From a virus (taxonomy: Duplodnaviria; Caudoviricetes), in the IMG/VR virus record IMGVR_UViG_3300032116_000208, positions 1 to 59,976 of that record: a stretch of DNA of 59,976 bases, one strand, 5' to 3'. The notes under the pieces are model-generated. The model ran no database searches. It saw only the letters and a program-made list of their open reading frames with translations, and was not told where the DNA came from. Position numbers and translations under genes: made by a program. Below, in pieces: positions 440 to 10,938 of this stretch. Position 1 is the first letter of the stretch. Each line of letters begins with the position of its first letter.

Positions 440-1270
440 ATGGGCGGTAAATCTAGTCCTCCACCACCAGACTATGGCCCTATGGCCGCTGCGAGCAGAG
501 AGTCCGCTGAAATCATGGCCGGTCTCGGTCGTGACCAGTTAGCGTTTGCGCGTCAACAGTACGATGAAATGCGTCCGCTGGCGCAACGAGCCGCTGACCA
601 GCAATTTGCCACGCAGAACGAACTCATGCAGATGGGGCGCGAAGACCGGCAGTACCAGATGGAAACCTTCCGTCCGCTTGAGCGAGGTCTCGTGGCTGAC
701 GCAGCGCGGTTCAGTACTGAGGGATTCCGTGAACAACAAGCCCGTGATGCCGCCGCTGCTACAGGCCGTGCCTTTGGCGTGATGCAAGACGCTGCTGGCC
801 GTGCTGCCGCCTCGCGTGGTGTAAATCCGAACTCTGGCGCTGGCATGGCGCTGCAGTCTCAGAACATGCTGGGTCTATCCGCACAACGTGCCAACGCCAT
901 GACAGGCGCTCGCAATCAGGCTGAACAGATGGGCTTCGCCCGACGCATGGATGTCACAGGCCTTGGCCGTGGGTTGAGTGGCTCAGCTCAAGGCGCGTAT
1001 GGCGCTGCCACTGGCGCGGGCTCTGCTGGTGTCAACACATCCATGGCTCCGGGCAACCAATTTACACAAAATATGGTGCAAGGGGCAAACACTATAGGTT
1101 CTGGGCGCACCATGCTTCAGAGTGGTTTGGGCAACATTCTCGGCTCACAGACGTCTGTGTATAACACCGCACAAAGCCAAGCCGATCCGTTTGCTTCTAT
1201 CGTGGGTATGGGCCTTGGCGCTTACGCTGGTGGATTTGGTGGTGCAATGGGCAGAAAAGCAGGTACGTAA
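440..1270 (+). CDS. Internal virion / DNA ejection protein
   Basis: MGGKSSPPPPDY N-terminus, Gly/Ala/Gln-rich, AAGGAG RBS, typical synteny. Confidence 0.7.
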   Translation: MGGKSSPPPPDYGPMAAASRESAEIMAGLGRDQLAFARQQYDEMRPLAQRAADQQFATQNELMQMGREDRQYQMETFRPLERGLVADAARFSTEGFREQQARDAAAATGRAFGVMQDAAGRAAASRGVNPNSGAGMALQSQNMLGLSAQRANAMTGARNQAEQMGFARRMDVTGLGRGLSGSAQGAYGAATGAGSAGVNTSMAPGNQFTQNMVQGANTIGSGRTMLQSGLGNILGSQTSVYNTAQSQADPFASIVGMGLGAYAGGFGGAMGRKAGT

Positions 1271-1271
1271 C

Positions 1272-3113
1272 ATGGCAGATTTCTTCAAAGGCCTCACCGG
1301 TGGCTTCCAATCCGGTTTGCAACTTGGCGAAGCTATGCGTGCCAAGCAAGAGCGCGAACGTCTGCGTGAAGCCATGGGGCTTACCCCCCAAGCTATGGAG
1401 CAGCGTCAGGCTACCCCAGAGGAGTTCGGTCGCGCACAGACTTACACGCAATCAATTGCTGCGGACGATGTGCAAACATTTGGTCTGACACCGCAGGATC
1501 AAGCCATGTACGCCCCGCAGATGCCTGTTGAGGGCCAGCGTATCGGGGCAACCCAGTACGGCCTTGGCGGTCAGACGTTTAACCGCATGCCCACGCAGCA
1601 GGAGATTGAGGCTGCGCGTTTCGGTGCTGCTGCCAACGTGATCGCCGAGCGTGACCCCATCGCAGCTATGCGTATGCGCCGCGAGATGGATGAACAGACG
1701 TACCAAGCGCGTATTCGCCCCATCCAAGAAGAGCAGATGCGGCAGCAAGGTATTCTTACTAGCGGCCAAATTACGGAGATGAACCGCAACCAAGCGCGGA
1801 CAAAGAAAATTGATGATGTCGATGCAGATGTTGCGCAATGGCAGTCAAAGAGGCTTCTTGACCCAAATACCAACGAACTTCGCCAACCGACGATGGATGA
1901 CAACATCGCGGCGCTGCAGTACCGCGCTACAGCTTTGCAAAAGGCTGGTCTTGCAAAAGAAGCTACAGACTCACTGCGCGACTACCAAGGCTTTGCGGTT
2001 AACCAGATCAAGCTCGATGAAACACAGCGGAACTCCCAGCTTGGTGCTGTAGCTGCTGCGATTGCAGCGGGAGACCTTAATCCAGCTGTAGCCTTCTATG
2101 ACCGATACGTGCTTGACGGCGCAAAAGTAACGGGCATGAAGACTGATCCAAAGACCGGTGCCATTACAGTTTCTCGCGTGCGAGACGATGGCGCACCTAT
2201 GCCTGACAAGGTAATTAAGGGTGGAGCAAACGAGCTGCTGGCGGCGCTTAACTCTTTCAAAGACCCTATGGCGCTGTATAACTACAGCCAGAACGAGTTC
2301 ACCAACAACTTGAACTTGCGCAAAACTGTAGCTGCCGAACAAACTGCCAAGTCAACCGTTGGTCTCAACAACGCTCGTGCAAGCCAGATCAAACAAATGA
2401 ACGACGCGCTGGCTACAAATTTGAAGAACAGCGAAGAGGCTAAACAGATTCAAACTCAGTTTGCCGCGTTGGACGATAGCAATGATCCCGGTGGTGCCAA
2501 ACGCCAGAGCCTTGTTACGCAGTTCAACATGCTGTCTGTCAAGGCTGGCGGGACAATTCCGACTACTACTGGCGGTGGTAAAAAAGGTTCTGTACTTCAG
2601 ACTCCTGTCGACCTCAAGAAGAACGACGATGGCACATACACCGCGTTTGCCAAAGATGGCGGTCGTGCGCTGTACAACACGTTTAACGGCGAAGAAATTC
2701 CGCTCGGCATGGAAGTTGATACATACAGAAGCATGAAAGCTAACGCTCAGAAGAACGGCGTTGGTCTGGTCACTGGGGAAGAAAATGGTCGGCTGGTTCT
2801 GAAGTTTGTTGGCCCTGATGGTAAGTTCTACGACGACGCTGAAAAAGCCAAGTACGCCAAACCAACTAAGGCAGATACGCAGCCGGGCGGCTTAGATACA
2901 TCACGTACCCCAGTTGTTCAGCCTGCAGCACAGCCTACGGCACCTACGGCTAAACCGGTGCGGGCCCCCGGTGAATCCTTTACGGAGTTCCGAGATCGCA
3001 CAGTTGCTTGGGATAGAAATCGAATTGCTTACGAGAATATGCTAACTGAACAGCGCCTTAGAGGGCAGCTAAGCGGCAACGCTGCCGGACTGCGCCGACC
3101 ACTAGTTGAGTAA
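1272..3113 (+). CDS. Internal virion / DNA ejection protein
   Basis: ATG 1272 (MADFFKGLTGGFQSG) directly after the previous stop; helical Q/A-rich; synteny. Confidence 0.65.
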   Translation: MADFFKGLTGGFQSGLQLGEAMRAKQERERLREAMGLTPQAMEQRQATPEEFGRAQTYTQSIAADDVQTFGLTPQDQAMYAPQMPVEGQRIGATQYGLGGQTFNRMPTQQEIEAARFGAAANVIAERDPIAAMRMRREMDEQTYQARIRPIQEEQMRQQGILTSGQITEMNRNQARTKKIDDVDADVAQWQSKRLLDPNTNELRQPTMDDNIAALQYRATALQKAGLAKEATDSLRDYQGFAVNQIKLDETQRNSQLGAVAAAIAAGDLNPAVAFYDRYVLDGAKVTGMKTDPKTGAITVSRVRDDGAPMPDKVIKGGANELLAALNSFKDPMALYNYSQNEFTNNLNLRKTVAAEQTAKSTVGLNNARASQIKQMNDALATNLKNSEEAKQIQTQFAALDDSNDPGGAKRQSLVTQFNMLSVKAGGTIPTTTGGGKKGSVLQTPVDLKKNDDGTYTAFAKDGGRALYNTFNGEEIPLGMEVDTYRSMKANAQKNGVGLVTGEENGRLVLKFVGPDGKFYDDAEKAKYAKPTKADTQPGGLDTSRTPVVQPAAQPTAPTAKPVRAPGESFTEFRDRTVAWDRNRIAYENMLTEQRLRGQLSGNAAGLRRPLVE

Positions 3114-3159: not shown

Positions 3160-6100
3160 ATGCCTTTCGTACCACTCCGTACTGTTGTTGGAACCGATGA
3201 AGAAGATACTGGTTTCAAGCCGTTGCGGGATGTCTACTTGGGGCCAGCTCCGCAGCGTGGGGCCATTGCTGCCGGTCTTTCGGCTGGTGTAGACCAGCTT
3301 CAGGGGTTGGGTTATAGCGCTCTTGGTGGTGTTGCCGATATTGCGGGGGCAAGTGGAGCTCGTGATTGGGCCAACGAACAAGCCCGCCGTAATCAAGTTG
3401 ACGCTTCTGTTGGCGGTCGCCCCGACCTTGAGCGTATCGAAGATCAGTCGCTTGGTTCTGCGCTGCCGTACTTAGGCTACCAAGTTGCCAAACAAGTTCC
3501 AACGATGCTCGGCATTGCGGGCGCACAGCTTATCCCCGGCGCTGGCCAAGTTGCTGGCGCTGTAGGTCTTACGCGACTTGGTGCTGTTGCACCTCGTATG
3601 CTGGGCGGCGGCGGTTTGCAAGCTGGCTCTAGCGCTGCGGCACGTCGTGCCGCTTTGGCGCAGGGTGAAGTTTTTGGTACAGGCACGCTGGCTGGTTCTG
3701 CCATGGGTTTTGGCTCGCTTTATGGCGAGTCTGTTGAAGGTGGTGACCCAAGCCCATTTAAGTCTTTGGCGCTGGCTCCAATTTATGGCGCTGCTGAAGC
3801 TGTTCTTCCTGCTGTGTTGCAAGGCAGTTTGCGTGCGCCAGCTAGGTACTCCGGCAATATTGGTACTCGCATGGCTAAAGCGGGTGGGGTTGCTGGTGCG
3901 GGCGAAGCCTTAACCGAACTTGGCCAAAACGAACTTGAGATGGGTATGCGGTCAGACTTGACCGCCGAAGAAATGGCGTCTCGCCGCCTTAACGCAGCAG
4001 CAGCTGGCCTGATTGTTGGTGGTAGTTTGGGTACTGTTGGCGGTGTTCGTGGTCCACGACGCCCTGACACAGAGTCAGACCTGACTCAGCCATTGGATAC
4101 CACTACACGCCCAGACCCCAGCCAGTTTGTGACGCAAGACCAGACTGTCGGCCTGAAGAAATTCATTGATGTAAACACTGGGGTGGTGCGTCCATCCCGC
4201 AAAGACTATGAGAAACAGTTTGAGGCTGCGTTTAACGAGCCTAGTGGTCAGTTTGTTGCTGATGCTGCTACTGGCGTTGAACGTGAACTGACTGTCGGTG
4301 AGCTGATGCAGCGTGGCTCTACGGCCATGGACTTGACTCAGGACAAGCCTGCTGACACTGCTGCCGCAGCTACTGCGGCTACTAATGTAGCTACTACGCG
4401 TGATCCACGCGATGTGTTCTTGCGCGATGAGCTCAAGGTAATCCCGAACAACAATAGCCGTCAGCTGTTTACGCTGATGGAAGAGCAGGGTGTTGACCCT
4501 ACGTCCCCAGCCATGGTTCCTGTATGGAACTACGCCGCTGCAAAGTACATGACTCCAAGCCGTCTGACAAAGGCCACAGAGCTGATGGATGCAGCCATCA
4601 TTCAGTCCCGCAAGGAGGCACCAATTGGCACAGGAATTTCTACTGTACAGCAGCCTGCAGGAGGCGTGGGAGTCGGGGGCCCTGTCGTTCAAGGAAGTGT
4701 GGGAAATGCAGGACGCCCTGCTCCTGTCGCAGGAGCAATGGACGGAAGTGCCCCAGCAGCTGGAGCCCCACTTCAACAAGCTGGCATTCTTCCAGTCGCC
4801 CCCGGGCAACCATCTACCACTGTAACCACCGGAGCACCAAGTGGCCCTCAAGCCTCTCAAACCATCCAAACAGCGCCGCAAGGACAAACCGCTACCACCG
4901 TTCCAGCTGCCGCCCCAGTAAGGGCCAATACAACGCTGCGCTTGAACCAGCAGGAAAAGCTGCCCGGTGAAACCGACATTACCAACATCGCGGATATTGC
5001 CCGCATGACAGGTAACGCTGGTGGGATTGATGCTGTTCTGGAAGACGAGGCTGGCTTGCGTGCTGACCAACGCGACTTTACGGACGATGACCTCAACGCT
5101 GTGATTGAAGAGCAGGTAGGCAAAGGCAAGAACGCAGATCGTGACCGTCAGATTTTGCGTGCCTACATCACAGCACGTCGTGCTGTACCGAGCGGCTACA
5201 AGGGCAACATCGCCAAGGAAATCGCTGACTCGTTTGGCATCGCTGAATCGCGGGTACGTCAGATCGGCAACCCAGAAAAGCTGGCTGATATTGCAGTGTC
5301 CATGGGATTTGATCGCGCTCAGGTGTTTGATCGCTTGGGTATCCAGTCAGCCCAAAAAGCCTTGGCTACTGAGTTAGGCAAACTCGAAGGCGAACTGACA
5401 CGCCTGAAGGCCAAAGCCAAACCGACCAAAGCTGACATTGCTCGCATGGCAGAGCTGGATGAGCAGATTACTCGCATCAACGATGAAGTTGAAGCTGGCG
5501 ACATGGCCGCTGCGTTTAAAGAAGCTGGCATCGAAGGCGAAGCCGGGGAAGCGTTTGGCAACTTGGACGACGCTCGTGAATGGCAAAAGGCTAGCACTGC
5601 TGGTAGCCAGATGGCTGTTAAGTTGGTCTCCATTGCAGACACCATTGCTGAGTTGAAGACCGCTGCTGCGGAGTTGAATCAACTGGGTCTGGCCCAAGCT
5701 GAGGCTGCTGCCGCTGAGCGCATTAAAGAACTGACTGCCGAGTACCAAGCAATTGTGTCTGGCTACGAAGCCAAGCCAGAAGCTGCTGCTCCCAAGAAGG
5801 GCAAAGGTAAAGGCAAAGCTGCTGAGAAAGCCTCTGAAGAAAAAGACGCTGCCAAGGAAGCCGAAGCTGCCAAGTTCCGCGCCGAGCGTGCGGCCAAGCT
5901 GCAGGCTGACCGTAACGGCCTTGCCGTTGGCGATACTGTCAAGAACCCCAAGCTGGGCACTGGCGTGGTTAAGAGCTTCGCTGGCGATGGCGATGCAACC
6001 ACTGTTACTGTAGCGTTCCAGAGTGGGCAGACCAAAGAACTGTCAGTCAAACTGGCAAAACTGGAGAAAACCGATGCCGTTCAAGTCGAAAGCCCAGCAG

Positions 6101-9100
6101 GGGTATCTGTTCAGCCAAAAGCCGAAACTGGCGAAAAAGTGGGCCGACAAGTACGGCGTGCCCCAAAGCCTGCCGCAGAAGGTAAAGCCCAAGTCCCAGC
6201 CGTCATCCTCACCCAAGCCGAGCAAGCAGCCCAAGCGTGGGATGTAGTCGCTGCTGACTTCCCAGAGGCTCCCAAGTTTGCTGATCTGACCAAGGCCCAG
6301 CAGAACACATTCATTGGCTTCGGTGAAGGTAACTGGGAGCGTGGTGACGTTGAGCTTGAGCTGACCAAGTTGGCCCGCGCTGCTGCGCCTACGCAACGAG
6401 CTATACGTCTGCGCCACGGAACAACTGCAGCCAACAAGGCGATGATCGAAAAACTCGGTCACATGGACCCAGAAGGCGGTGAGCGCCAGTACACGTACTC
6501 TGAATTTGGTCGTAAAGCCGTGTACCTTACTCGCCCTGAAGGTTGGTGGTTGGACAAAGAAAAAGCCGCCGCTGGGCGTGCCGTTGTTTACGATTCCTAC
6601 GTGGACGTTGAACTGCCAAGCGATGCAAACGTAGTCACCATAAACAACATGGCTGACTTTGAAGCGTTGGCAAAACGCGTCGGCGAGTCCAGTGCAAAGT
6701 CGATGGCTAACAAGCTGGCTGTTGATGGTTTGGATTGGCTATCTCAAGCCAAAGAGCTTCGGTCTATCACGTTAGATCAGGCTGTCCAAAAGTACATACG
6801 CGAGCAGAAAGAAAGCGCCGCCAAGTACGGGGGCTTTGATACTAAGGGGGTCAACACGCTTGGCGAATTGGCGGACTTCCTAAATACCAACGTAAACAAT
6901 CAGTACACCCAAACAACAGAAGCTGAACTGCGTACGCGCATCCGCGACAACTGGCTTGACGCGAAGTCTTACGAACTAGACACGTTTGGCGAATCTGATG
7001 CAATGACACAGAAGCTGATTGACGCTGGGGTGGACGTTATTGACATAGCTCCAGACGCAGACGTTGGCGTTGCTGCAGATCAGGTTGTAGTGTTGCGCCC
7101 AGAACTGGTCAAACTTGCATCGGCTGTAAAACAGCAAGAGGCTTTCTTGCGCAAGTCGCGCCGCAGCGTTCGCACTGCTGACCAGAGCGGTGTGGAGTTT
7201 GAGTCTGTTGAGGCTTCGCTGGACGACCTGTCTAACTACTCCGAGGGCATTGCTGCTGGCATCCGTAGCCTGCGCGACGTTGACATGGGCAACGCTGTTG
7301 ACGCTATTGACTCATGGATGGTCACGTTCTCCCCAGTGTCGTGGGACGCCATCTACACCATGATCGACGGCAAGCGCACCATCATCTACAACGGTGTGAT
7401 TCTCAAGGACAAGGTTCTGTCTACTGTTGCTACTCTGCACGAAGTCGGCCATGGCATTGACGAGGTACAGGGCGGCGCTGGTAAGTTCTCTGGCGGTGCG
7501 GAGTTCAGGATGTCTCGGGTAAACGGCGAGCTGATGTCCATGCGCCCCGGCACGGTTGCAGACGAACTCTTGAACCACTGGGAAGATGCAAGCGAGACGT
7601 CAGCTTTGGGCGGTATGCTCAACTATCCGCTGGACATGACAGACCCGGAAAATCGCTCCCTGACGATGCAAGAGCTGCGTGAGGAAGTCTTTGCTCAGGT
7701 TTGGGCTTTCTCAAATCTGAACGGCGGCATGGATTACCTCCGTGATAACCTGCCCACGACACACGCTTTTATGGAGAAGGCACATGAACAAGTCAAAGCC
7801 ACAAACTACCAACGCGCCCAAGGTGCCCAGCAAGGTGCTCAGTCAGGACAAGTTCAAGCTGGACAGCAAAACGCGCAGCCTGCTGGGGCAGTTCTTAGAG
7901 CCAGCCGTCAAGCCAAACAAGGGCTGATCGACCGCAACATTGCCAAGCTGCCGAAGATGTCTCAGCAACCGGTACGTAACTTGGCCGGTGCTCTTGGTGA
8001 CATTGGAGGTGCTGGTCTGGACTACGTTGTGTTCACCAGTGACTTGGTCAAGCGTGCTGTTGCCGCTGGCCTGCCTGCTGCTCAGACTTTCTCCGACCGT
8101 CTTGCTTCGCGTAACGCCAAGGTCAGTGAAGAGGAACGCAAGATCGAAAAGATTGCAGACCGCTATGCGTCCATTGAGGACGACGCCAAGGGCAGTGGCC
8201 CCGGCTCGGTCAACGAGTTCTTGTTTGAGTCCACCCGCACAGGCAAGTGGGGCTATGGCAAGTTCCGTGACGCCAAGATGGGCGCTGCGTTCGATGCGTT
8301 GGGCCCCAAGGCTCAGCAGTTCGTCAAGGACGTGTTTGCCCATGGTGACGCCACGCTGTCCAACAAGAAGAAGATTGTCTTGGACGCAGCCAACTCTGAG
8401 TACGACGCCATGATTAAGGCAGCTCAGGACGCTGGTGACACCAAGACTGAGGCTACTCTCAAGGCTGAGAAAGCCGCTACGCTCAAGCGCTTTCAGACAC
8501 TGTTCCGCATCCGCGAGGGCATGCCTTATGCGCCCATCAAGCGCACTGGTTCGTATGTGGTAATCGGCGAGTCTGCTGAGTACCAAAAAGCCAAGGCTAA
8601 CAAAGACACCGCCACGCTCAAGAAGCTGGAGTCTGACCCAGACCATTACCATGTGTCGTTCACAGACACCAAGTGGCAAGCCCGTAGCCTGCGTGACAGA
8701 CTAGCAGAGCAAGGCGTGTTCACTGACCCGCAAGTTGTTTCTCGCTCTGAGTCCTTTGACGAGGCGTTCAGTGGTGAGGCCATGCTGCCAGCCCTGACAA
8801 AGATGCGTGCCGCTGTGGATCGCCGTGCTCAGGACTCTACTGGCAAGAAAGACCCGACTGCTGGCAAGCTGCTCAACATCATCAACCAGTTGTACTTGGA
8901 GGCGTTGGCTGAGGGTAGTGCTCGCAAGTCTGAGATGCGTCGTCGTGGTGTAGCCGGTGAAGTGGACATGCTCCAGTCGTTCACCCAGCAAGGTCGTGCC
9001 GATGCCAACTTCTTGGCCAGCGTTGAGTTTGAGCCTAAGATTCAGGATGCCTTGCAACAGATGCGTAACCAGTCACGCACTGGCGACCGCGAACGCAAGT

Positions 9101-10674
9101 CCGAAATCTTCGACGAGTTGACCAAGCGCTACGCAGGTACGCTGGACCCACAGCCAAGCCCGTTCATCAACGGTCTGACCAACATGGCGTCCAAGTTCTT
9201 CTTGGCCTCCAGCCCCGGCTACTACTTGCAGAACTTGACACAGCCGTTCATGATGTCCCTGCCTGCCATGGCAGGTCGTCACGATTACACCAAAGCTGCC
9301 GCTGAGCTGGCCAAGGCGTACGGTGAGTTGGGCCCACTGTTCAAGGATGTGAAGCTGTTCGACGAGCAGTTTGACTTCTCCAAGGTGCCTGCTGACGTGC
9401 GTAAAGCCATCAACGAGTTGGTCAACCAAGGCAAGATTGACATTGGTCTGGCCACTGAGATCAACGAGTACAAGGTAGAAGCCGACAACAAACTCAGCAA
9501 GTTTGCGCAGCGTTTGAACAAGGGCATGCGCTTGGCCGTGCAGAAAGTGGAAGCTACCAACCGCCTGTCTACTGCCATTGCTGCCTACCGTTTGGAGTTC
9601 GCCCGGACTAAGGACGCTGACAAGGCAACCCAGTACGCTGCTGACATCCTGACTGACACCCATGGTGACTACACAGCCTTCAACGCTCCTCGTGCGTTCA
9701 ACACCCAGTGGGGTAAGGTGGCTTTGCAGTTCCGCAAGTTCCAGTTGATTCAGATCGCGTTCTACTCCAAGCTGGTTCGTGACGCGTTCACCAATCCTGC
9801 CGAGCGTGCAGCAGCCATGAAGACTCTGGCCTATTCGCTGAGCCACACTGCCGTGTTCGCTGGCATGATGGGCTTGCCCGGCTACGCTGCCATTTCTGCA
9901 ATCTTGGGCTTCTTCGGTGACGAGGACGAGCCGTACGATCTGACTGCTGAAATGCGCAAGGCGCTTGGCCCTGAGTGGGCTAACATCATCATGCGTGGCG
10001 CTCCAACCGTTGTGGGTATGGACTTGTCCGGCAAGATCGGCGCTGGCAACATGCTGTCCATCATGCCATTCAGTGACGCTGACTTGAGCACCAACGCAGG
10101 TCGCGCCGAAGCTTTCGGTACATTGATTGGTGGTGCAGCTTTGGGGATGACATCCCGCATCATTGACGGCCTTGGCCTGATTGCCAGCGGTGACTACTAC
10201 AAGGGTGTTGAGCGTGTTATGCCAAAGGGTGTGTCCGACGCGCTCAAAGCTGCACGCCAAGGTGCTGAAGGTATGACTCGCCGCAACGGCGATGTGGTCT
10301 TGCCCGACAGTGAGATCAGCTCCCTCGACACAGTATTTACTGCGTTGGGTGTGCCTGCTGTAGAGCAGACTGTAACCTACGAGCGTCAGAACCGCATGCG
10401 CGATTTGACCAAGAACTTCCAAGACCGCACCACGCGTATCAAGAACGACTACGCCAAAGCTGTCCGCGAGAAGGACACTGCTGCCATGGCCGAAGCCCGC
10501 ACTGCATGGACTAAACTCCAGCAGGCTCGCCAGCGTAACGGCTTGACACCACAGCCAGTATCCAGCCTGCTGAAAGCACCGCAGGAACAGAAGGCTCGTG
10601 AGCAGCGCACCGTAGGTGGTGTACAGTACCGCGAAGGCCAGCGTAAACTGGCAGAATCCGTAGCAGCAGATTAA
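3160..10674 (+). CDS. Giant polyvalent internal virion protein (sigma4-like HTH, Tudor/SH3, ART-like, HExxH zincin, PLxRFG-like)
   Basis: 2504 aa; motifs EIADSFGIAESRVRQI, GDTVKNPKLGTGVV, RHGT..AVYLT, HEVGH..EEVFA, YAPIKRTGSY; follows the ejection genes. Confidence 0.8.
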   Translation: MPFVPLRTVVGTDEEDTGFKPLRDVYLGPAPQRGAIAAGLSAGVDQLQGLGYSALGGVADIAGASGARDWANEQARRNQVDASVGGRPDLERIEDQSLGSALPYLGYQVAKQVPTMLGIAGAQLIPGAGQVAGAVGLTRLGAVAPRMLGGGGLQAGSSAAARRAALAQGEVFGTGTLAGSAMGFGSLYGESVEGGDPSPFKSLALAPIYGAAEAVLPAVLQGSLRAPARYSGNIGTRMAKAGGVAGAGEALTELGQNELEMGMRSDLTAEEMASRRLNAAAAGLIVGGSLGTVGGVRGPRRPDTESDLTQPLDTTTRPDPSQFVTQDQTVGLKKFIDVNTGVVRPSRKDYEKQFEAAFNEPSGQFVADAATGVERELTVGELMQRGSTAMDLTQDKPADTAAAATAATNVATTRDPRDVFLRDELKVIPNNNSRQLFTLMEEQGVDPTSPAMVPVWNYAAAKYMTPSRLTKATELMDAAIIQSRKEAPIGTGISTVQQPAGGVGVGGPVVQGSVGNAGRPAPVAGAMDGSAPAAGAPLQQAGILPVAPGQPSTTVTTGAPSGPQASQTIQTAPQGQTATTVPAAAPVRANTTLRLNQQEKLPGETDITNIADIARMTGNAGGIDAVLEDEAGLRADQRDFTDDDLNAVIEEQVGKGKNADRDRQILRAYITARRAVPSGYKGNIAKEIADSFGIAESRVRQIGNPEKLADIAVSMGFDRAQVFDRLGIQSAQKALATELGKLEGELTRLKAKAKPTKADIARMAELDEQITRINDEVEAGDMAAAFKEAGIEGEAGEAFGNLDDAREWQKASTAGSQMAVKLVSIADTIAELKTAAAELNQLGLAQAEAAAAERIKELTAEYQAIVSGYEAKPEAAAPKKGKGKGKAAEKASEEKDAAKEAEAAKFRAERAAKLQADRNGLAVGDTVKNPKLGTGVVKSFAGDGDATTVTVAFQSGQTKELSVKLAKLEKTDAVQVESPAGVSVQPKAETGEKVGRQVRRAPKPAAEGKAQVPAVILTQAEQAAQAWDVVAADFPEAPKFADLTKAQQNTFIGFGEGNWERGDVELELTKLARAAAPTQRAIRLRHGTTAANKAMIEKLGHMDPEGGERQYTYSEFGRKAVYLTRPEGWWLDKEKAAAGRAVVYDSYVDVELPSDANVVTINNMADFEALAKRVGESSAKSMANKLAVDGLDWLSQAKELRSITLDQAVQKYIREQKESAAKYGGFDTKGVNTLGELADFLNTNVNNQYTQTTEAELRTRIRDNWLDAKSYELDTFGESDAMTQKLIDAGVDVIDIAPDADVGVAADQVVVLRPELVKLASAVKQQEAFLRKSRRSVRTADQSGVEFESVEASLDDLSNYSEGIAAGIRSLRDVDMGNAVDAIDSWMVTFSPVSWDAIYTMIDGKRTIIYNGVILKDKVLSTVATLHEVGHGIDEVQGGAGKFSGGAEFRMSRVNGELMSMRPGTVADELLNHWEDASETSALGGMLNYPLDMTDPENRSLTMQELREEVFAQVWAFSNLNGGMDYLRDNLPTTHAFMEKAHEQVKATNYQRAQGAQQGAQSGQVQAGQQNAQPAGAVLRASRQAKQGLIDRNIAKLPKMSQQPVRNLAGALGDIGGAGLDYVVFTSDLVKRAVAAGLPAAQTFSDRLASRNAKVSEEERKIEKIADRYASIEDDAKGSGPGSVNEFLFESTRTGKWGYGKFRDAKMGAAFDALGPKAQQFVKDVFAHGDATLSNKKKIVLDAANSEYDAMIKAAQDAGDTKTEATLKAEKAATLKRFQTLFRIREGMPYAPIKRTGSYVVIGESAEYQKAKANKDTATLKKLESDPDHYHVSFTDTKWQARSLRDRLAEQGVFTDPQVVSRSESFDEAFSGEAMLPALTKMRAAVDRRAQDSTGKKDPTAGKLLNIINQLYLEALAEGSARKSEMRRRGVAGEVDMLQSFTQQGRADANFLASVEFEPKIQDALQQMRNQSRTGDRERKSEIFDELTKRYAGTLDPQPSPFINGLTNMASKFFLASSPGYYLQNLTQPFMMSLPAMAGRHDYTKAAAELAKAYGELGPLFKDVKLFDEQFDFSKVPADVRKAINELVNQGKIDIGLATEINEYKVEADNKLSKFAQRLNKGMRLAVQKVEATNRLSTAIAAYRLEFARTKDADKATQYAADILTDTHGDYTAFNAPRAFNTQWGKVALQFRKFQLIQIAFYSKLVRDAFTNPAERAAAMKTLAYSLSHTAVFAGMMGLPGYAAISAILGFFGDEDEPYDLTAEMRKALGPEWANIIMRGAPTVVGMDLSGKIGAGNMLSIMPFSDADLSTNAGRAEAFGTLIGGAALGMTSRIIDGLGLIASGDYYKGVERVMPKGVSDALKAARQGAEGMTRRNGDVVLPDSEISSLDTVFTALGVPAVEQTVTYERQNRMRDLTKNFQDRTTRIKNDYAKAVREKDTAAMAEARTAWTKLQQARQRNGLTPQPVSSLLKAPQEQKAREQRTVGGVQYREGQRKLAESVAAD
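4625..4825 (+). CDS. Nested +1-frame ORF A (66 aa) in the giant gene
   Basis: AAGGAGG at 4612-4618, TTG start 6 nt later; globular-looking product over a low-complexity linker of the host gene. Confidence 0.6.
   Translation: MAQEFLLYSSLQEAWESGALSFKEVWEMQDALLLSQEQWTEVPQQLEPHFNKLAFFQSPPGNHLPL
6074..6247 (+). CDS. Nested +1-frame ORF B (57 aa, MPFKSKAQ-type basic protein)
   Basis: GGAG at 6063-6066, ATG 6074; N-terminus resembles small stand-alone basic phage proteins. Confidence 0.65.
   Translation: MPFKSKAQQGYLFSQKPKLAKKWADKYGVPQSLPQKVKPKSQPSSSPKPSKQPKRGM
7784..7927 (+). CDS. Nested +1-frame ORF C (47 aa)
   Basis: GGAGAAGG upstream, ATG 7784; overlies the Q/A/G linker after the zincin domain. 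Confidence 0.4.
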   Translation: MNKSKPQTTNAPKVPSKVLSQDKFKLDSKTRSLLGQFLEPAVKPNKG

Positions 10675-10683
10675 GGAGTAACC

Positions 10684-10938
10684 ATGGCCAAGACACCTGC
10701 ATGGCAGCGCAAAGAGGGCAAGTCCGAGAAGGGCGGGCTCAACGCCAAGGGGCGTGCGTCTTACAACAAGGCGAACCCCGGCAAGCCGGGGCTCAAGGCT
10801 CCTCAGCCAGAGGGTGGCCCACGACGTGACTCATTCTGTGCCCGCATGGAGGGTATGAAGGAGAAGCTGACCAGCGCCAAGACTGCCAAAGACCCCAACA
10901 GCCGCATCAACAAGTCGTTGCGTGCATGGAAGTGCTGA
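10684..10938 (+). CDS. Small basic conserved phage protein (DUF6321-like)
   Basis: GGLNAKGRASY..SFCARM..SLRAWKC motifs; TAAGGAG RBS. Confidence 0.7.
   Translation: MAKTPAWQRKEGKSEKGGLNAKGRASYNKANPGKPGLKAPQPEGGPRRDSFCARMEGMKEKLTSAKTAKDPNSRINKSLRAWKC

What the first reader, a model, noticed from the sequence alone, without database searches (positions are those of the whole stretch)
4612..7927. Three RBS-equipped genes overprinted in the same +1 frame of the giant ejection gene
Seen: ORFs 4625-4825, 6074-6247 and 7784-7927 share one frame, each has a well-spaced SD, and each covers a low-complexity linker between domains of the 2504-aa protein. Inference: the linkers are the off-frame reading of real small genes. 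They could be chaperones or inhibitors of the toxic domains during virion assembly, or co-packaged partners. I know of no description of this arrangement for polyvalent proteins.
Basis: partly seen in the sequence, partly recalled or inferred. Interest (0 to 1): 0.8.

Follow-up and report, generated by a model that had tools for sequence, protein, structure and literature searches.

The report
Three hidden genes inside giant phage gene
Three small protein-coding genes are nested in a shifted reading frame inside the linker regions of a giant phage virion gene, and related phages conserve them better than the giant protein's own linker sequence, so standard annotation misses real genes here.

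Summary
The window is a complete 59,976-bp virus record. Its 2,504-aa PLxRFG gene (3160-10674) carries three +1-frame ORFs, each with a Shine-Dalgarno (SD) site and a start codon: 4625-4825, 6074-6247 and 7784-7927.

ORF plus SD in this one sequence is not beyond chance: 6 such +1 ORFs against 3.6±1.8 in synonymous shuffles. The comparative evidence decides it:
- In a codon alignment with 17 relatives, the most variable codon position switches from the giant frame's third base to the +1 frame's third base only inside the three ORFs (21 of 248 evaluable windows, none elsewhere).
- Start codons and SD sites persist across three or four different upstream modules.
- Codon usage is gene-like in +1 and off-frame-like in the giant frame.
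- A wobble T that would create a stop in the giant frame is never used (0 of 518, against 29% in ordinary genes). Both frames are therefore kept open.

ORF2 belongs to a widespread small basic phage protein family. It stands alone in some phages and lies in +1 inside large genes in 30 of 76 sampled loci. ORF1 belongs to a ~67-aa family that was embedded in every giant gene examined (53 of 53 fetched loci). ORF3 is real with less certainty. Translation is not shown and the functions are unknown. My literature searches found no description of this arrangement.

The parts
3160..10674 (+). Giant host gene, 2504 aa. The C-terminal PLxRFG domain spans aa 1830-2484. The gene is a mosaic of modules joined by hydrophobic-poor linkers.
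   Evidence: ORF. NCBIfam NF032893, E 2.5e-91, 307 bits against a cut-off of 100; phrog_10089. The frame is open in all 17 relatives used; linker map.
4612..4618 (+). Shine-Dalgarno site AAGGAGG of ORF1, 6 nt before the start.
   Evidence: An SD-like site followed by TTG, GTG or ATG is kept in 17 of 17 sequences across three different upstream contexts, and in 30 of 30 further loci.
4625..4825 (+). ORF1: nested +1-frame gene of 66 aa. The product is acidic (9 D+E, 2 K+R) and is predicted to be a three-helix protein. It belongs to a ~67-aa family that ends in N-x-LPL.
   Evidence: (Fisher p=2.7e-8); structure, pLDDT 69.7; 36 profile hits; divergent members embedded in 23 of 23 loci.
6063..6066 (+). 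Shine-Dalgarno site GGAG of ORF2, 7 nt before the ATG.
   Evidence: GGAG plus ATG is present in 18 of 18 sequences across at least four upstream contexts.
6074..6247 (+). ORF2: nested +1-frame gene of 57 aa. The product has a helical hairpin (aa 6-27) and a lysine/proline-rich tail (14 K+R, 1 D+E). It belongs to the widespread phage family that starts with MPFKS.
   Evidence: (p=0.004); family. Phe codon TTC in 30 of 30 embedded copies; independent lineage; structure.
7773..7780 (+). SD-like GGAGAAGG before ORF3. It overlaps the conserved giant-frame motif F-M-E-K, so its conservation is ambiguous.
   Evidence: 11 of 11 sequences that carry this module.
7784..7927 (+). ORF3: probable nested +1-frame gene of 47 aa. 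The product is basic (10 K+R, 3 D+E) and carries a conserved SQDKF motif.
   Evidence: the wobble switch is confined to 7786-7938; 34 of 34 loci found through the neighbouring giant-frame domain have the ATG and an open +1 frame (two cut by a contig end); codon index 0.82 against 0.66. Weaker points: Fisher p=0.15 and only 2 database proteins.

Best explanation
The gene for the 2,504-aa PLxRFG virion protein is dual-coding at three of its four hydrophobic-poor interdomain linkers.

In each of the three, the +1 frame holds a small gene with its own SD site and start codon:
- ORF1: 66 aa, acidic, helical.
- ORF2: 57 aa, a helical hairpin followed by a basic tail.
- ORF3: 47 aa, basic.

Ribosomes are inferred to start internally on the giant gene's mRNA and make the three small proteins alongside the giant one.

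Selection acts mainly on the small genes' frame. In those stretches the giant frame only has to stay open and hydrophilic, and that yields a flexible linker.

At least for ORF2, the small gene is the older reading. The same family stands alone just after the portal gene, or just after a giant gene, in other phages. The linker therefore probably arose when neighbouring head-module genes were fused by reading through the small gene out of frame.

Shown: dual-frame conservation, start signals and family membership.

Inferred: translation, the order of events, and function. My guess at function is accessory proteins of head assembly or of the giant protein's packaging or ejection, with ORF2's basic tail binding nucleic acid.
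For: 1. Wobble phase. In the codon alignment of the window with 17 IMG/VR relatives, the giant frame's third position is the most variable everywhere. The exceptions are 4597-4836 and 6049-6228 and, among the 8 sequences that share ORF3's module, 7786-7938. A scan restricted to relatives of at least 70% local identity could evaluate 248 of 357 windows. All 21 flagged windows lie in the three ORFs and none elsewhere.

2. Variant classes per opportunity, given as synonymous only in +1 / synonymous only in the giant frame / altering both:
- ORF1: 58/125, 27/167, 41/261.
- ORF2: 25/92, 14/122, 20/238.
- ORF3: 16/72, 12/91, 12/200.
Fisher tests of the first class against the second give p=2.7e-8, 0.004 and 0.15.

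3. Start signals. ORF1 has TTG, GTG or ATG behind AAGGAG-type sites in three different upstream contexts, 17 of 17 sequences. ORF2 has ATG behind GGAG in 18 of 18.

4. Both frames are kept open. A T at a +1 wobble position that would create a giant-frame stop occurs at 0 of 518 sites. It occurs at 110 of 1099 safe sites and at 829 of 2889 equivalent sites in ordinary genes of the window.

5. Codon-usage index. The +1 frame scores 0.78, 0.78 and 0.82, against an in-frame gene mean of 0.759 ± 0.076. The giant frame in the same segments scores 0.61, 0.69 and 0.66, against an off-frame mean of 0.626.

6. The antisense frame that shares the same wobble phase carries stops in 3 of 17, 2 of 18 and 10 of 10 sequences.

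7. ORF2 family.
- 30 database proteins of 41-80 aa match.
- Unannotated stand-alone ORFs exist in S-CBS2 and C75C1, and Papyrus gp8 follows the portal gene.
- At least 343 viral-contig stretches match.
- Of 76 loci with the motif, 30 lie inside a same-strand ORF of at least 300 aa, all 30 in the +1 frame, and 26 stand alone.
- The Phe-3 codon is TTC in 30 of 30 embedded copies, against 12 TTC and 14 TTT in stand-alone copies.
- A separate AT-rich lineage of 12 loci shows the same wobble switch.

8. ORF1 family.
- 36 profile hits, 30 of them 64-71 aa long.
- 30 of 30 close loci and 23 of 23 divergent loci are embedded in the +1 frame of giant ORFs.
- +1 amino-acid identity is 0.53 against 0.36 for the host frame, and +1 is higher in 81 of 81 pairs.

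9. ORF3. 34 of 34 loci found through the neighbouring giant-frame domain have the ATG and an open +1 frame, though two are cut by a contig end before any stop. The SQDKF motif is exact in 20 of 25 unique sequences and differs by one residue in 3 more. The +1 wobble position is the most variable.
Against: - There is no direct evidence of translation. No Ribo-seq or proteomics exists for this uncultured virus. The RNA runs held only assembled contigs of relatives.
- ORF3 is weak on its own. Fisher p is 0.15. Its SD and ATG overlap a conserved giant-frame motif (F-M-E-K-x-H/Y-E). One search pattern (FMEKAHEQ) covers that site. The most divergent loci (L131-L136) have an open +1 frame but no recognisable similarity.
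- The sequences are related to each other, so counts per sequence overstate the number of independent events.
- I took the longest ORF of each locus as the giant gene, so 'giant frame open' is partly by construction, although every one of the 17 loci had such an ORF.
- Loci fetched with the small proteins themselves cannot show losses.
- 109 of 357 windows of the giant gene could not be evaluated.
- The functions are unknown. No Pfam or NCBIfam family matched, no PDB fold matched ORF1, and the models are only moderate (pLDDT 69.7 and 71.9).
Confidence: 0.85

Rival explanations
1. The three ORFs are by-products of linker composition. Linkers rich in A, G, P, Q, K and E lack T at codon position 2, so the +1 frame cannot contain stops. 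The SD-like sites arise from common GAG and AAG codons. Nothing is translated from +1.
For: The giant gene holds 15 +1 ORFs of at least 40 aa. It holds 6 SD-equipped +1 ORFs of at least 45 codons, against 3.6 ± 1.8 in shuffles. Several other frames are also open over ORF1, including a 331-aa antisense ORF.
Against: This reading predicts that the giant frame's third position stays the most variable. It does not. It also does not explain the native codon usage in +1, the start codons kept across different upstream modules, the stand-alone homologues of ORF2, or a ~67-aa ORF1 family that stays recognisable at 30-55% identity while the host-frame peptide keeps only its composition.
Confidence: 0.03
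2. The stretches are conserved at the nucleotide level as recombination joints between exchangeable modules of the mosaic giant gene, or as RNA elements. They are not conserved for +1 coding.
For: Different upstream modules join exactly at the starts of ORF1 and ORF2. Contigs of relatives in public runs break at 4626 and 6073. The three stretches are islands of high nucleotide identity in a mosaic gene.
Against: Nucleotide-level constraint would lower variation at all three codon positions alike. The observed variation has a three-base period in phase with +1, in the order pos3 > pos1 > pos2 of the +1 codon. ORF1-family members at 30-55% amino-acid identity are too diverged to serve homologous recombination, yet they keep the protein motifs. 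Both roles could coexist.
Confidence: 0.04
3. The +1 frames are coding but are reached by programmed ribosomal frameshifting from the giant frame. This would give truncated isoforms of the giant protein with alternative C-termini. The SD-like sites would act as frameshift stimulators.
For: Internal SD-like sites are known frameshift stimulators in prfB and dnaX (recalled from the literature, not from any call). The ORFs share strand and transcript with the giant gene.
Against: A legitimate start codon sits at the N-terminal edge of the conserved peptide in every context, and it shifts by one codon together with its SD site in one context. Stand-alone family members begin at the same Met-Pro-Phe. 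The 10-15 nt before the starts differ between contexts, so there is no conserved slippery heptamer. I did not scan systematically for slippery sites.
Confidence: 0.05
4. The 'giant gene' is really several separate genes with small genes between them. The continuity of the giant frame across the small genes would then be accidental and untranslated.
For: For ORF1 and ORF2, the giant frame shows no amino-acid-level constraint inside the overlap.
Against: A T at a +1 wobble position that would stop the giant frame is used at 0 of 518 sites, against 10% at safe sites and 29% in ordinary genes. The giant frame is open for 2094-2849 aa in all full-length relatives. It is also open in 23 of 23 divergent hosts.
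Confidence: 0.03

Closest known systems
Lambda Rz/Rz1 embedded spanin genes (recalled from the literature, not retrieved here)
   Same: A small gene lies wholly inside a larger gene on the same strand, in the +1 frame, with its own start. Both products are functional.
   Different: Rz1 is a lipoprotein with a signal sequence and a lipobox cysteine, and it sits in the lysis cassette. The three products here contain no cysteine and lie in a head-module giant gene. Here there are three nested genes in one host gene, each over an interdomain linker, and the nested frame is the better conserved one.
Overlapping genes of small phages such as phiX174 (B in A, E in D; recalled) and viral overprinting in general. 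The reviews PMC8227390 and PMC3494269 were seen only as search listings and abstract starts.
   Same: Two proteins are read from one stretch of DNA in different frames, and selection is shared between the frames.
   Different: Those cases are usually explained by genome compression and by de novo birth of the second frame. Here the genome is 60 kb, and the nested frame looks like the ancestral one: native codon usage, stronger constraint and stand-alone relatives. The host frame is a low-complexity linker.
Out-of-frame ORFs embedded in mycobacteriophage Patience genes 91 and 20, detected by mass spectrometry (PMC4324244; passages read)
   Same: Same-strand ORFs lie wholly inside annotated phage genes and have strong ribosome-binding sites.
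   Different: The Patience ORFs are expressed but mostly not conserved, and the authors doubt that they function. Here conservation is strong and broad, but expression has not been shown.
Polyvalent proteins of phages and conjugative elements (Iyer et al. 2017, PMC5512222; passages read through 'find')
   Same: A giant multidomain protein encoded in the phage head module, mosaic in domain content. PHROGs labels its C-terminal family 'DarB-like'.
   Different: That paper's main text has 0 occurrences of 'overlapping', 'frameshift', 'linker' or 'low-complexity'. Nested genes in linkers are therefore not part of the description. Its supplements were not seen. No effector or toxin domain typical of polyvalent proteins was identified here.
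Pfam DUF3008 (PF11450). The N-terminal resemblance was recalled; the only tool lead is an Atlas cluster at score 0.81 in which 15% of members carry the family.
   Same: Small basic proteins of about 55 aa, partly viral, whose N-terminal motif resembles that of ORF2.
   Different: None of the 22 ORF2-family members scanned matched the Pfam model at E up to 1. ORF2 is therefore not a member by the available test.

Membership tests
Same-strand nested (overlapping) protein-coding gene | The alternative frame is open from a start codon to a stop in relatives that carry the segment. | tested here: met
   ORF1 in 16 of 16 loci, ORF2 in 17 of 17 and ORF3 in 9 of 9 complete loci with the module. ORF3 also in 34 of 34 loci found through the neighbouring domain, two of them cut by a contig end. 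ORF1 family in 53 of 53 further loci.
Same-strand nested (overlapping) protein-coding gene | Purifying selection acts in the alternative frame (three-base periodicity and an excess of synonymous changes in that frame). | tested here: met
   Met for ORF1 and ORF2: (p=2.7e-8 and 0.004). For ORF3 the wobble switch is present but the class test gives p=0.15.
Same-strand nested (overlapping) protein-coding gene | The gene has its own translation start signals, and they are conserved. | tested here: met
   For ORF3 the site also encodes a conserved host-frame motif, so the test is inconclusive there. In the AT-rich lineage no clear SD site is seen.
Same-strand nested (overlapping) protein-coding gene | The host frame is also maintained. 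| tested here: met
   0 of 518 stop-creating wobble T, against 110 of 1099 and 829 of 2889. Phe codon TTC in 30 of 30 embedded copies, against 12 of 26 stand-alone copies.
Same-strand nested (overlapping) protein-coding gene | The product is detected (Ribo-seq initiation peak, peptides). | not testable with these tools
   The virus is uncultured. The RNA runs held only assembled contigs.
PLxRFG domain-containing protein (NCBIfam NF032893), for the host gene | The score exceeds the curated cut-off of the model. | tested here: met
   307.1 bits against a cut-off of 100, E 2.5e-91, aa 1830-2484. tblastn hits fall on proteins annotated PLxRFG or 'DarB-like'.
Polyvalent protein in the sense of Iyer et al. 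2017, for the host gene | Several recognisable effector or anti-defence domains in one polypeptide, encoded beside the packaging and head genes. | tested here: inconclusive
   The size, the mosaic structure and a neighbouring virion structural gene (phrog_8003) fit. Apart from PLxRFG, only a sub-threshold Tudor-like and an HTH-like match were found, plus an HExxH motif. No toxin or methylase/helicase domain was found.
Small phage protein family starting with MPFKS (phrog_1375 is the nearest library family), for ORF2 | Conserved N-terminal ~35 residues (M-P-F-K-S ... P-x-x-A-K ... L-P) followed by a short basic tail, total 35-65 aa. | tested here: met
   30 phmmer hits, E from 3.7e-23 to 1.1e-3. 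In alignment A1 the columns M1, P2, F3, S5, Q8, P17, A20 and L33 are invariant. The phrog_1375 match itself is weak (E 7e-4).
Pfam DUF3008 (PF11450), for ORF2 | Match to the Pfam model. | tested here: not met
   0 of 22 family members matched at E up to 1. The only support is an Atlas lead at score 0.81.
Rz1-type embedded o-spanin | Signal peptide with a lipobox cysteine, inside an i-spanin gene of the lysis cassette. | tested here: not met
   None of the three products contains cysteine. The host is a PLxRFG virion gene.
Programmed-frameshift product | A conserved slippery sequence at the frame junction and no need for a start codon. | tested here: not met
   The sequence before the starts differs between contexts, while a start codon is always present. 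No systematic heptamer scan was run.

The most novel reading that the evidence does not exclude
Giant phage virion proteins may be assembled by reading through resident small genes out of frame. Under this reading, two previously unrecognised small-protein families supply the interdomain linkers of giant genes as their off-frame shadow. One family starts with MPFKS. The other is ~67 aa long and ends in N-x-LPL. Both are hidden from annotation in scores of viral contigs. Their products would be dedicated partners of the giant protein during head assembly or ejection. Nested-gene linkers would then be a general rule of how polyvalent or giant virion proteins evolve and are expressed, with the overlap enforcing co-inheritance and co-expression.
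Probability: 0.3. Interest if true: 0.9.

Novelty: new variant of a known kind. Interest (0 to 1): 0.8.

Why it matters
- Gene callers do not call genes nested inside longer ORFs. Two or three conserved small-protein families are therefore absent from phage annotation on long contigs, although they occur in many uncultured phages. The MPFKS family matched at least 343 stretches in IMG/VR.
- This is a clean natural case in which the nested frame carries the protein-level constraint and the long host frame is only kept open and hydrophilic. That is the reverse of the usual overprinting picture. It suggests a simple route to multidomain fusion proteins: use an existing small gene as the linker.
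- Anyone who engineers, recodes or truncates these giant genes, or computes dN/dS on them, needs to know that three stretches are dual-coding.
- It gives testable candidates for small partners of the poorly understood PLxRFG or 'DarB-like' giant virion proteins.

Tried and rejected
- Near-identity DNA search of the giant gene against GenBank phages found no match.
- Pfam, PHROGs and NCBIfam scans of the three small proteins gave nothing usable. The only results were a weak phrog_1375 hit for ORF2 and a chance-level 2OG-FeII hit (E 0.086) on the long form of ORF1.
- The ESM Atlas gave no usable hit for ORF1. For ORF2 it gave only unnamed viral clusters, plus a DUF3008 lead at score 0.81.
- Foldseek of the ORF1 model against the PDB gave no match better than E 2.8.
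- The co-fold of ORF1 protein with giant-protein aa 200-488 (collected) returned 'no answer'. It is no evidence either way.
- PDB sequence search of the giant protein found only a Tudor-like stretch matching UvrD at E 0.005.
- RNA-run search and read laying found five runs with small shares (0.05-0.10), all as assembled contigs of relatives. These cannot show transcription starts, expression levels or translation. Parts without cover mean nothing.
- Antisense coding was considered because the antisense ORFs 4075-5070 and 6043-6462 share the wobble phase. I rejected it for two reasons: those ORFs extend far beyond the signal, and the frame has stops in some homologues.
- The blastp-threaded rescan used only 56 HSPs and had low coverage. 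It agreed with the main scan, apart from one tie at 9490-9534 and extra flagged windows up to 4899 just beyond ORF1's stop (only 3 sequence contexts there).
- The N-terminal region 3160-4180 and the regions 4831-5082, 5671-5838 and 6364-7224 could not be evaluated for further nested genes.
- The hosts of the embedded MPFKS genes gave no PHROG or Pfam family, except for phrog_32588 on some of the giants.
- The 663-aa ORF upstream of the giant gene could not be named.
- Literature searches that found no description of the arrangement: 'PLxRFG'; 'polyvalent protein' with 'overlapping gene'; the peptide word; overprinting and embedded-gene terms; 'gene within a gene' terms; polyvalent/MuF/linker terms. 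Supplements of papers were not requested and may hold relevant tables.

Full report
**What is there.** The window is a complete virus record of 59,976 bp. A single ORF at 3160-10674 (+) encodes 2,504 aa. Its C-terminal third is a PLxRFG domain: NCBIfam NF032893, 307 bits against a cut-off of 100, aa 1830-2484. PHROGs labels that family 'DarB-like'. The rest has only sub-threshold Tudor-like and HTH-like matches and an HExxH motif.

- ORF1: TTG at 4625, ending at 4825, 66 aa. AAGGAGG lies 6 nt upstream of the start.
- ORF2: ATG at 6074, ending at 6247, 57 aa. GGAG lies 7 nt upstream.
- ORF3: ATG at 7784, ending at 7927, 47 aa. GGAGAAGG lies upstream.

All three are in the +1 frame of the giant gene. 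They cover three of the four stretches of the giant protein that are nearly free of bulky hydrophobic residues.

**Is the single-sequence observation more than chance? No.**
- The giant gene holds 15 +1 ORFs of at least 40 aa.
- It holds 6 +1 ORFs of at least 45 codons with an SD-like site. 200 synonymous-codon shuffles gave 3.6 ± 1.8.
- Linkers without T at codon position 2 cannot make +1 stops.

The case therefore rests on comparison with relatives.

**Relatives.** A search of IMG/VR with the giant protein matched 25 stretches. Of these, 21 were confirmed, giving 18 distinct loci at 59-93% identity. I aligned the longest ORF of each locus with the window's protein and threaded the codons. 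L019 is the window itself and was left out. L001 and L014 are truncated and lack some of the regions.
- The +1 frame is open from a start codon to the same stop for ORF1 in 16 of 16 loci that have the region. L005 carries a 13-codon in-frame deletion.
- For ORF2 it is open in 17 of 17. L002 has a divergent tail and its own stop.
- For ORF3 it is open in the 10 loci that carry the same module. L013 is cut by the contig end.
- Seven loci carry an unrelated module at ORF3's place, with +1 stops.

**Wobble phase.** Along the whole gene, the giant frame's third codon position is the most variable. The exceptions are 4597-4836 and 6049-6228. There its third-position diversity falls from about 0.5 to 0.04-0.27, and its first position becomes the most variable. 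The giant frame's first position is the third position of the +1 frame.

Among the 8 sequences that share ORF3's module, the same switch is confined to 7786-7938. A scan that used only relatives of at least 70% local identity could evaluate 248 of 357 windows. All 21 flagged windows lie in the three ORFs (10, 7 and 4) and none elsewhere. The other 109 windows had too few relatives. A rescan with blastp-threaded alignments agreed, with one tie at 9490-9534 and a few extra flagged windows just past ORF1's stop, up to 4899.

**Variant classes.** I counted distinct single-base variants per mutational opportunity, in three classes: synonymous only in +1, synonymous only in the giant frame, and altering both proteins.
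- ORF1 (L005 dropped): 58/125, 27/167, 41/261.
- ORF2 (L002 dropped): 25/92, 14/122, 20/238.
- ORF3 (8 sequences): 16/72, 12/91, 12/200.

Fisher tests of the first class against the second give p=2.7e-8, 0.004 and 0.15. The second class against the third gives 0.89, 0.35 and 0.06.

In ORF1 and ORF2 the giant frame therefore shows no amino-acid-level constraint, while +1 does. In ORF3 both frames seem constrained, and the test alone is not significant.

**Both frames are kept open.** A T at a +1 wobble position followed by AA, AG or GA would create a stop in the giant frame. It occurs at 0 of 518 such sites across the homologues. It occurs at 110 of 1099 other wobble sites and at 829 of 2889 equivalent sites in 33 ordinary genes of the window.

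The low T usage even at safe sites (10% against 30%) suggests selection against giant-frame codons that begin with T (F, L, S, Y, C, W). That is what a hydrophilic linker would need. One caveat applies: I chose the longest ORF of each locus, so openness is partly by construction, although every locus had such an ORF.

**Start signals.**
- ORF1's start is TTG or GTG behind AAGGAGG in one upstream context. It is GTG behind AAGGAG in a second context. In a third it is ATG, one codon further upstream, behind GGGAG or AAGGAG. A start and SD are present in 17 of 17 sequences and in 30 of 30 further loci.
- ORF2 has ATG 6-7 nt behind GGAG in 18 of 18 sequences, across at least four upstream contexts.
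- ORF3's SD and ATG are kept in 11 of 11 sequences, but they also encode the conserved giant-frame motif F-M-E-K-x-H/Y-E.
- No conserved slippery sequence precedes any of the three starts.

**Codon usage.** A CAI-like index trained on the window's own genes gives 0.78, 0.78 and 0.82 for the +1 frames. In-frame 55-codon windows average 0.759 ± 0.076. The giant frame in the same segments gives 0.61, 0.69 and 0.66, and open off-frame windows average 0.626 ± 0.067. In all three overlaps the small gene looks like the native reading and the linker looks like an off-frame reading.

**Antisense alternative.** One antisense frame shares the wobble phase, and in the window it is open over ORF1 and ORF2. 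Its ORFs (4075-5070 and 6043-6462) run far beyond the signal. That frame has stops in 3 of 17, 2 of 18 and 10 of 10 homologues.

**ORF2 family.**
- ORF2 matches 30 database proteins of 41-80 aa, E from 3.7e-23 to 1e-3. They share an invariant M-P-F-x-S start and a basic tail.
- In GenBank phages the family is an unannotated ORF in S-CBS2 and in C75C1. In Papyrus it is gp8, immediately after the portal gene.
- In IMG/VR, at least 343 stretches encode a relative, and 80 were kept.
- Of the 76 kept loci with the motif, 30 lie wholly inside a same-strand ORF of at least 300 aa, all 30 in the +1 frame. Twelve of these hosts are 403-423 aa long. The other 18 are giants of 1248-3185 aa, and several of those are cut by the locus end.
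- 26 loci stand alone. The remaining 20 lie in shorter open segments that I did not pursue.
- Stand-alone copies often follow a 596-679-aa ORF. One of these is weakly portal-like. Others directly follow a giant gene (L060, L077).
- The third codon (Phe) is TTC in 30 of 30 embedded copies, against 12 TTC and 14 TTT in stand-alone copies. TTT would put TAA in the host frame.
- In the AT-rich lineage with ~410-aa hosts (12 loci), the same wobble switch coincides with the nested gene. That host gene lies between the portal gene and a virion structural gene, which is the usual scaffold position.
- The ORF2 model is a helical hairpin (aa 6-27) followed by a disordered basic tail (pLDDT 71.9).

**ORF1 family.**
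- A word-based search found only 17 close proteins, all on contigs of 4.3 kb or less.
- A profile search of 1.84 billion representatives found 36 proteins at E ≤ 1e-3. Thirty of them are 64-71 aa long, with a shared pattern that ends in N-x-LPL. Their genomic context could not be inspected.
- Close members occur in 31 viral contigs. Thirty of 30 examined are in the +1 frame of a large ORF. L167 gave no motif match in my script.
- Two sub-alignments of divergent members fetched 23 further contigs. In 23 of 23 the small gene lies in the +1 frame of a giant ORF of 1549-2391 aa or more, at host residue 485-657 (251 in the one locus, L182, whose host ORF is cut at the contig start). It is mostly behind a GGAG-like site, and the host frame there reads as G/A/P/V/T-rich low complexity.
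- Among the 20 unique divergent sequences, the substitution pattern is that of a normal gene in +1 (pos3 > pos1 > pos2). +1 identity is 0.53 against 0.36 for the host frame, and +1 is higher in 81 of 81 ungapped pairs.
- The host N-terminus is 33% identical to the window's in L189 and is not detectably similar in L172.
- The ORF1 model is a three-helix protein (pLDDT 69.7). It has no PDB fold match.

**ORF3.** Only two close database proteins exist. To avoid ascertainment bias I searched with the giant-frame HExxH domain that lies upstream of ORF3. This gave 12 viral and 22 metagenomic loci at 31-96% domain identity.
- All 34 have an ATG at the equivalent place, and the 32 complete ones an open +1 frame of about 43-60 codons (L107 and L122 are cut by a contig end).
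- Among 25 unique sequences, the SQDKF motif is exact in 20 and differs by one residue in 3 more. L131 and L135 show no clear similarity.
- The +1 wobble position is the most variable in the close group (0.171 against 0.086-0.090). The same holds in the L111-113 group.
- I rate ORF3 as probable, not certain.

**Mechanism.**
- Shown: three stretches of the giant gene are conserved as +1-frame coding sequence with start signals, while the giant frame is kept open.
- Inferred: internal initiation on the giant gene's mRNA yields three small proteins.
- Inferred: the overlap arose by fusion of head-module genes across resident small genes. This inference is best supported for ORF2.
- Guessed: function. 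The proteins are tied to the portal, scaffold and giant-protein part of the head module. ORF2's tail suggests nucleic-acid binding. ORF1 is acidic and always accompanies the giant gene, which suggests a dedicated partner.

**Novelty.** Nested +1 genes are known in phages (Rz/Rz1, phiX174; both recalled). The Patience proteomics paper reports expressed but unconserved embedded ORFs. The polyvalent-protein paper does not mention overlaps, frameshifts or linkers in its main text. Seven literature searches found no description of small genes nested in the linkers of giant virion proteins, or of these two families. Supplements were not seen. I class this as a new variant of a known kind.

**Verdict.** Confidence is 0.85 that ORF1 and ORF2 are real nested genes, and about 0.7 for ORF3. 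Interest is 0.8.

Noticed in passing
window 10684-10938: The 84-aa gene directly after the giant gene is a DUF6321 domain (Pfam E 6.8e-19). In PHROGs it matches the C-terminal ends of much longer families, for example positions 850-928 of a 928-position profile. In other phages this piece is therefore fused to a larger protein, which is another sign of fusion and fission around the giant gene.
   Followed up: partly
window 4620-4630 and 6068-6076; loci L001-L018: Three to four unrelated upstream modules of the mosaic giant gene join exactly at the start of ORF1 and of ORF2. Contigs of relatives in public runs also break at 4626 and 6073. The nested genes may double as recombination joints for module exchange.
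   Followed up: partly
L060 6001-6150 and L077 4214-4369: In these contigs an MPFKS-family gene stands alone immediately after the stop of a giant gene (1973 aa and 1373 aa, C-terminus phrog_32588). In L066 a related giant protein carries the small gene nested at about residue 811. These look like before-and-after states of a fusion.
   Followed up: partly
L084 and L093, 6001-6576: Here the MPFKS N-terminus is the start of a 192-aa protein. The family therefore also occurs fused in frame to a longer C-terminal part.
   Followed up: no
L051 5832-7070 and 11 similar loci: In an AT-rich phage lineage the MPFKS gene is nested in the acidic N-terminal part of a ~410-aa gene. That gene lies between the portal gene (phrog_6547) and a virion structural gene, which is the usual scaffold position. 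No clear SD site precedes the ATG there.
   Followed up: partly
window 3578-3913 (+1 frame, 111 aa) and 3160-4180 in general: A long +1 ORF lies over the G/A-rich N-terminal region of the giant protein. Too few relatives share this module to test it. The low-coverage rescan was noisy there.
   Followed up: no
window 4075-5070 (-), 7843-8679 (-), 9073-10422 (-): Long antisense ORFs of 331, 278 and 449 aa lie inside the giant gene. The first shares the wobble phase with ORF1 but extends far beyond the conserved stretch and has stops in 3 of 17 relatives. The other two were not examined.
   Followed up: partly
L168 (60,447-bp contig in a genome-collection MAG bin labelled Phycisphaerales): This was the only hit for the ORF1 family in 185,579 species genomes. 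The contig has the size of the phage genome and may be a phage contig binned with a MAG. It is not evidence of a host.
   Followed up: no
window 1122-3113: The 663-aa ORF just upstream of the giant gene has the size and position of a portal gene. It matched no PHROG, Pfam or NCBIfam model. It also overlaps the end of the 440-1270 ORF if the GTG at 1122 is the true start.
   Followed up: partly
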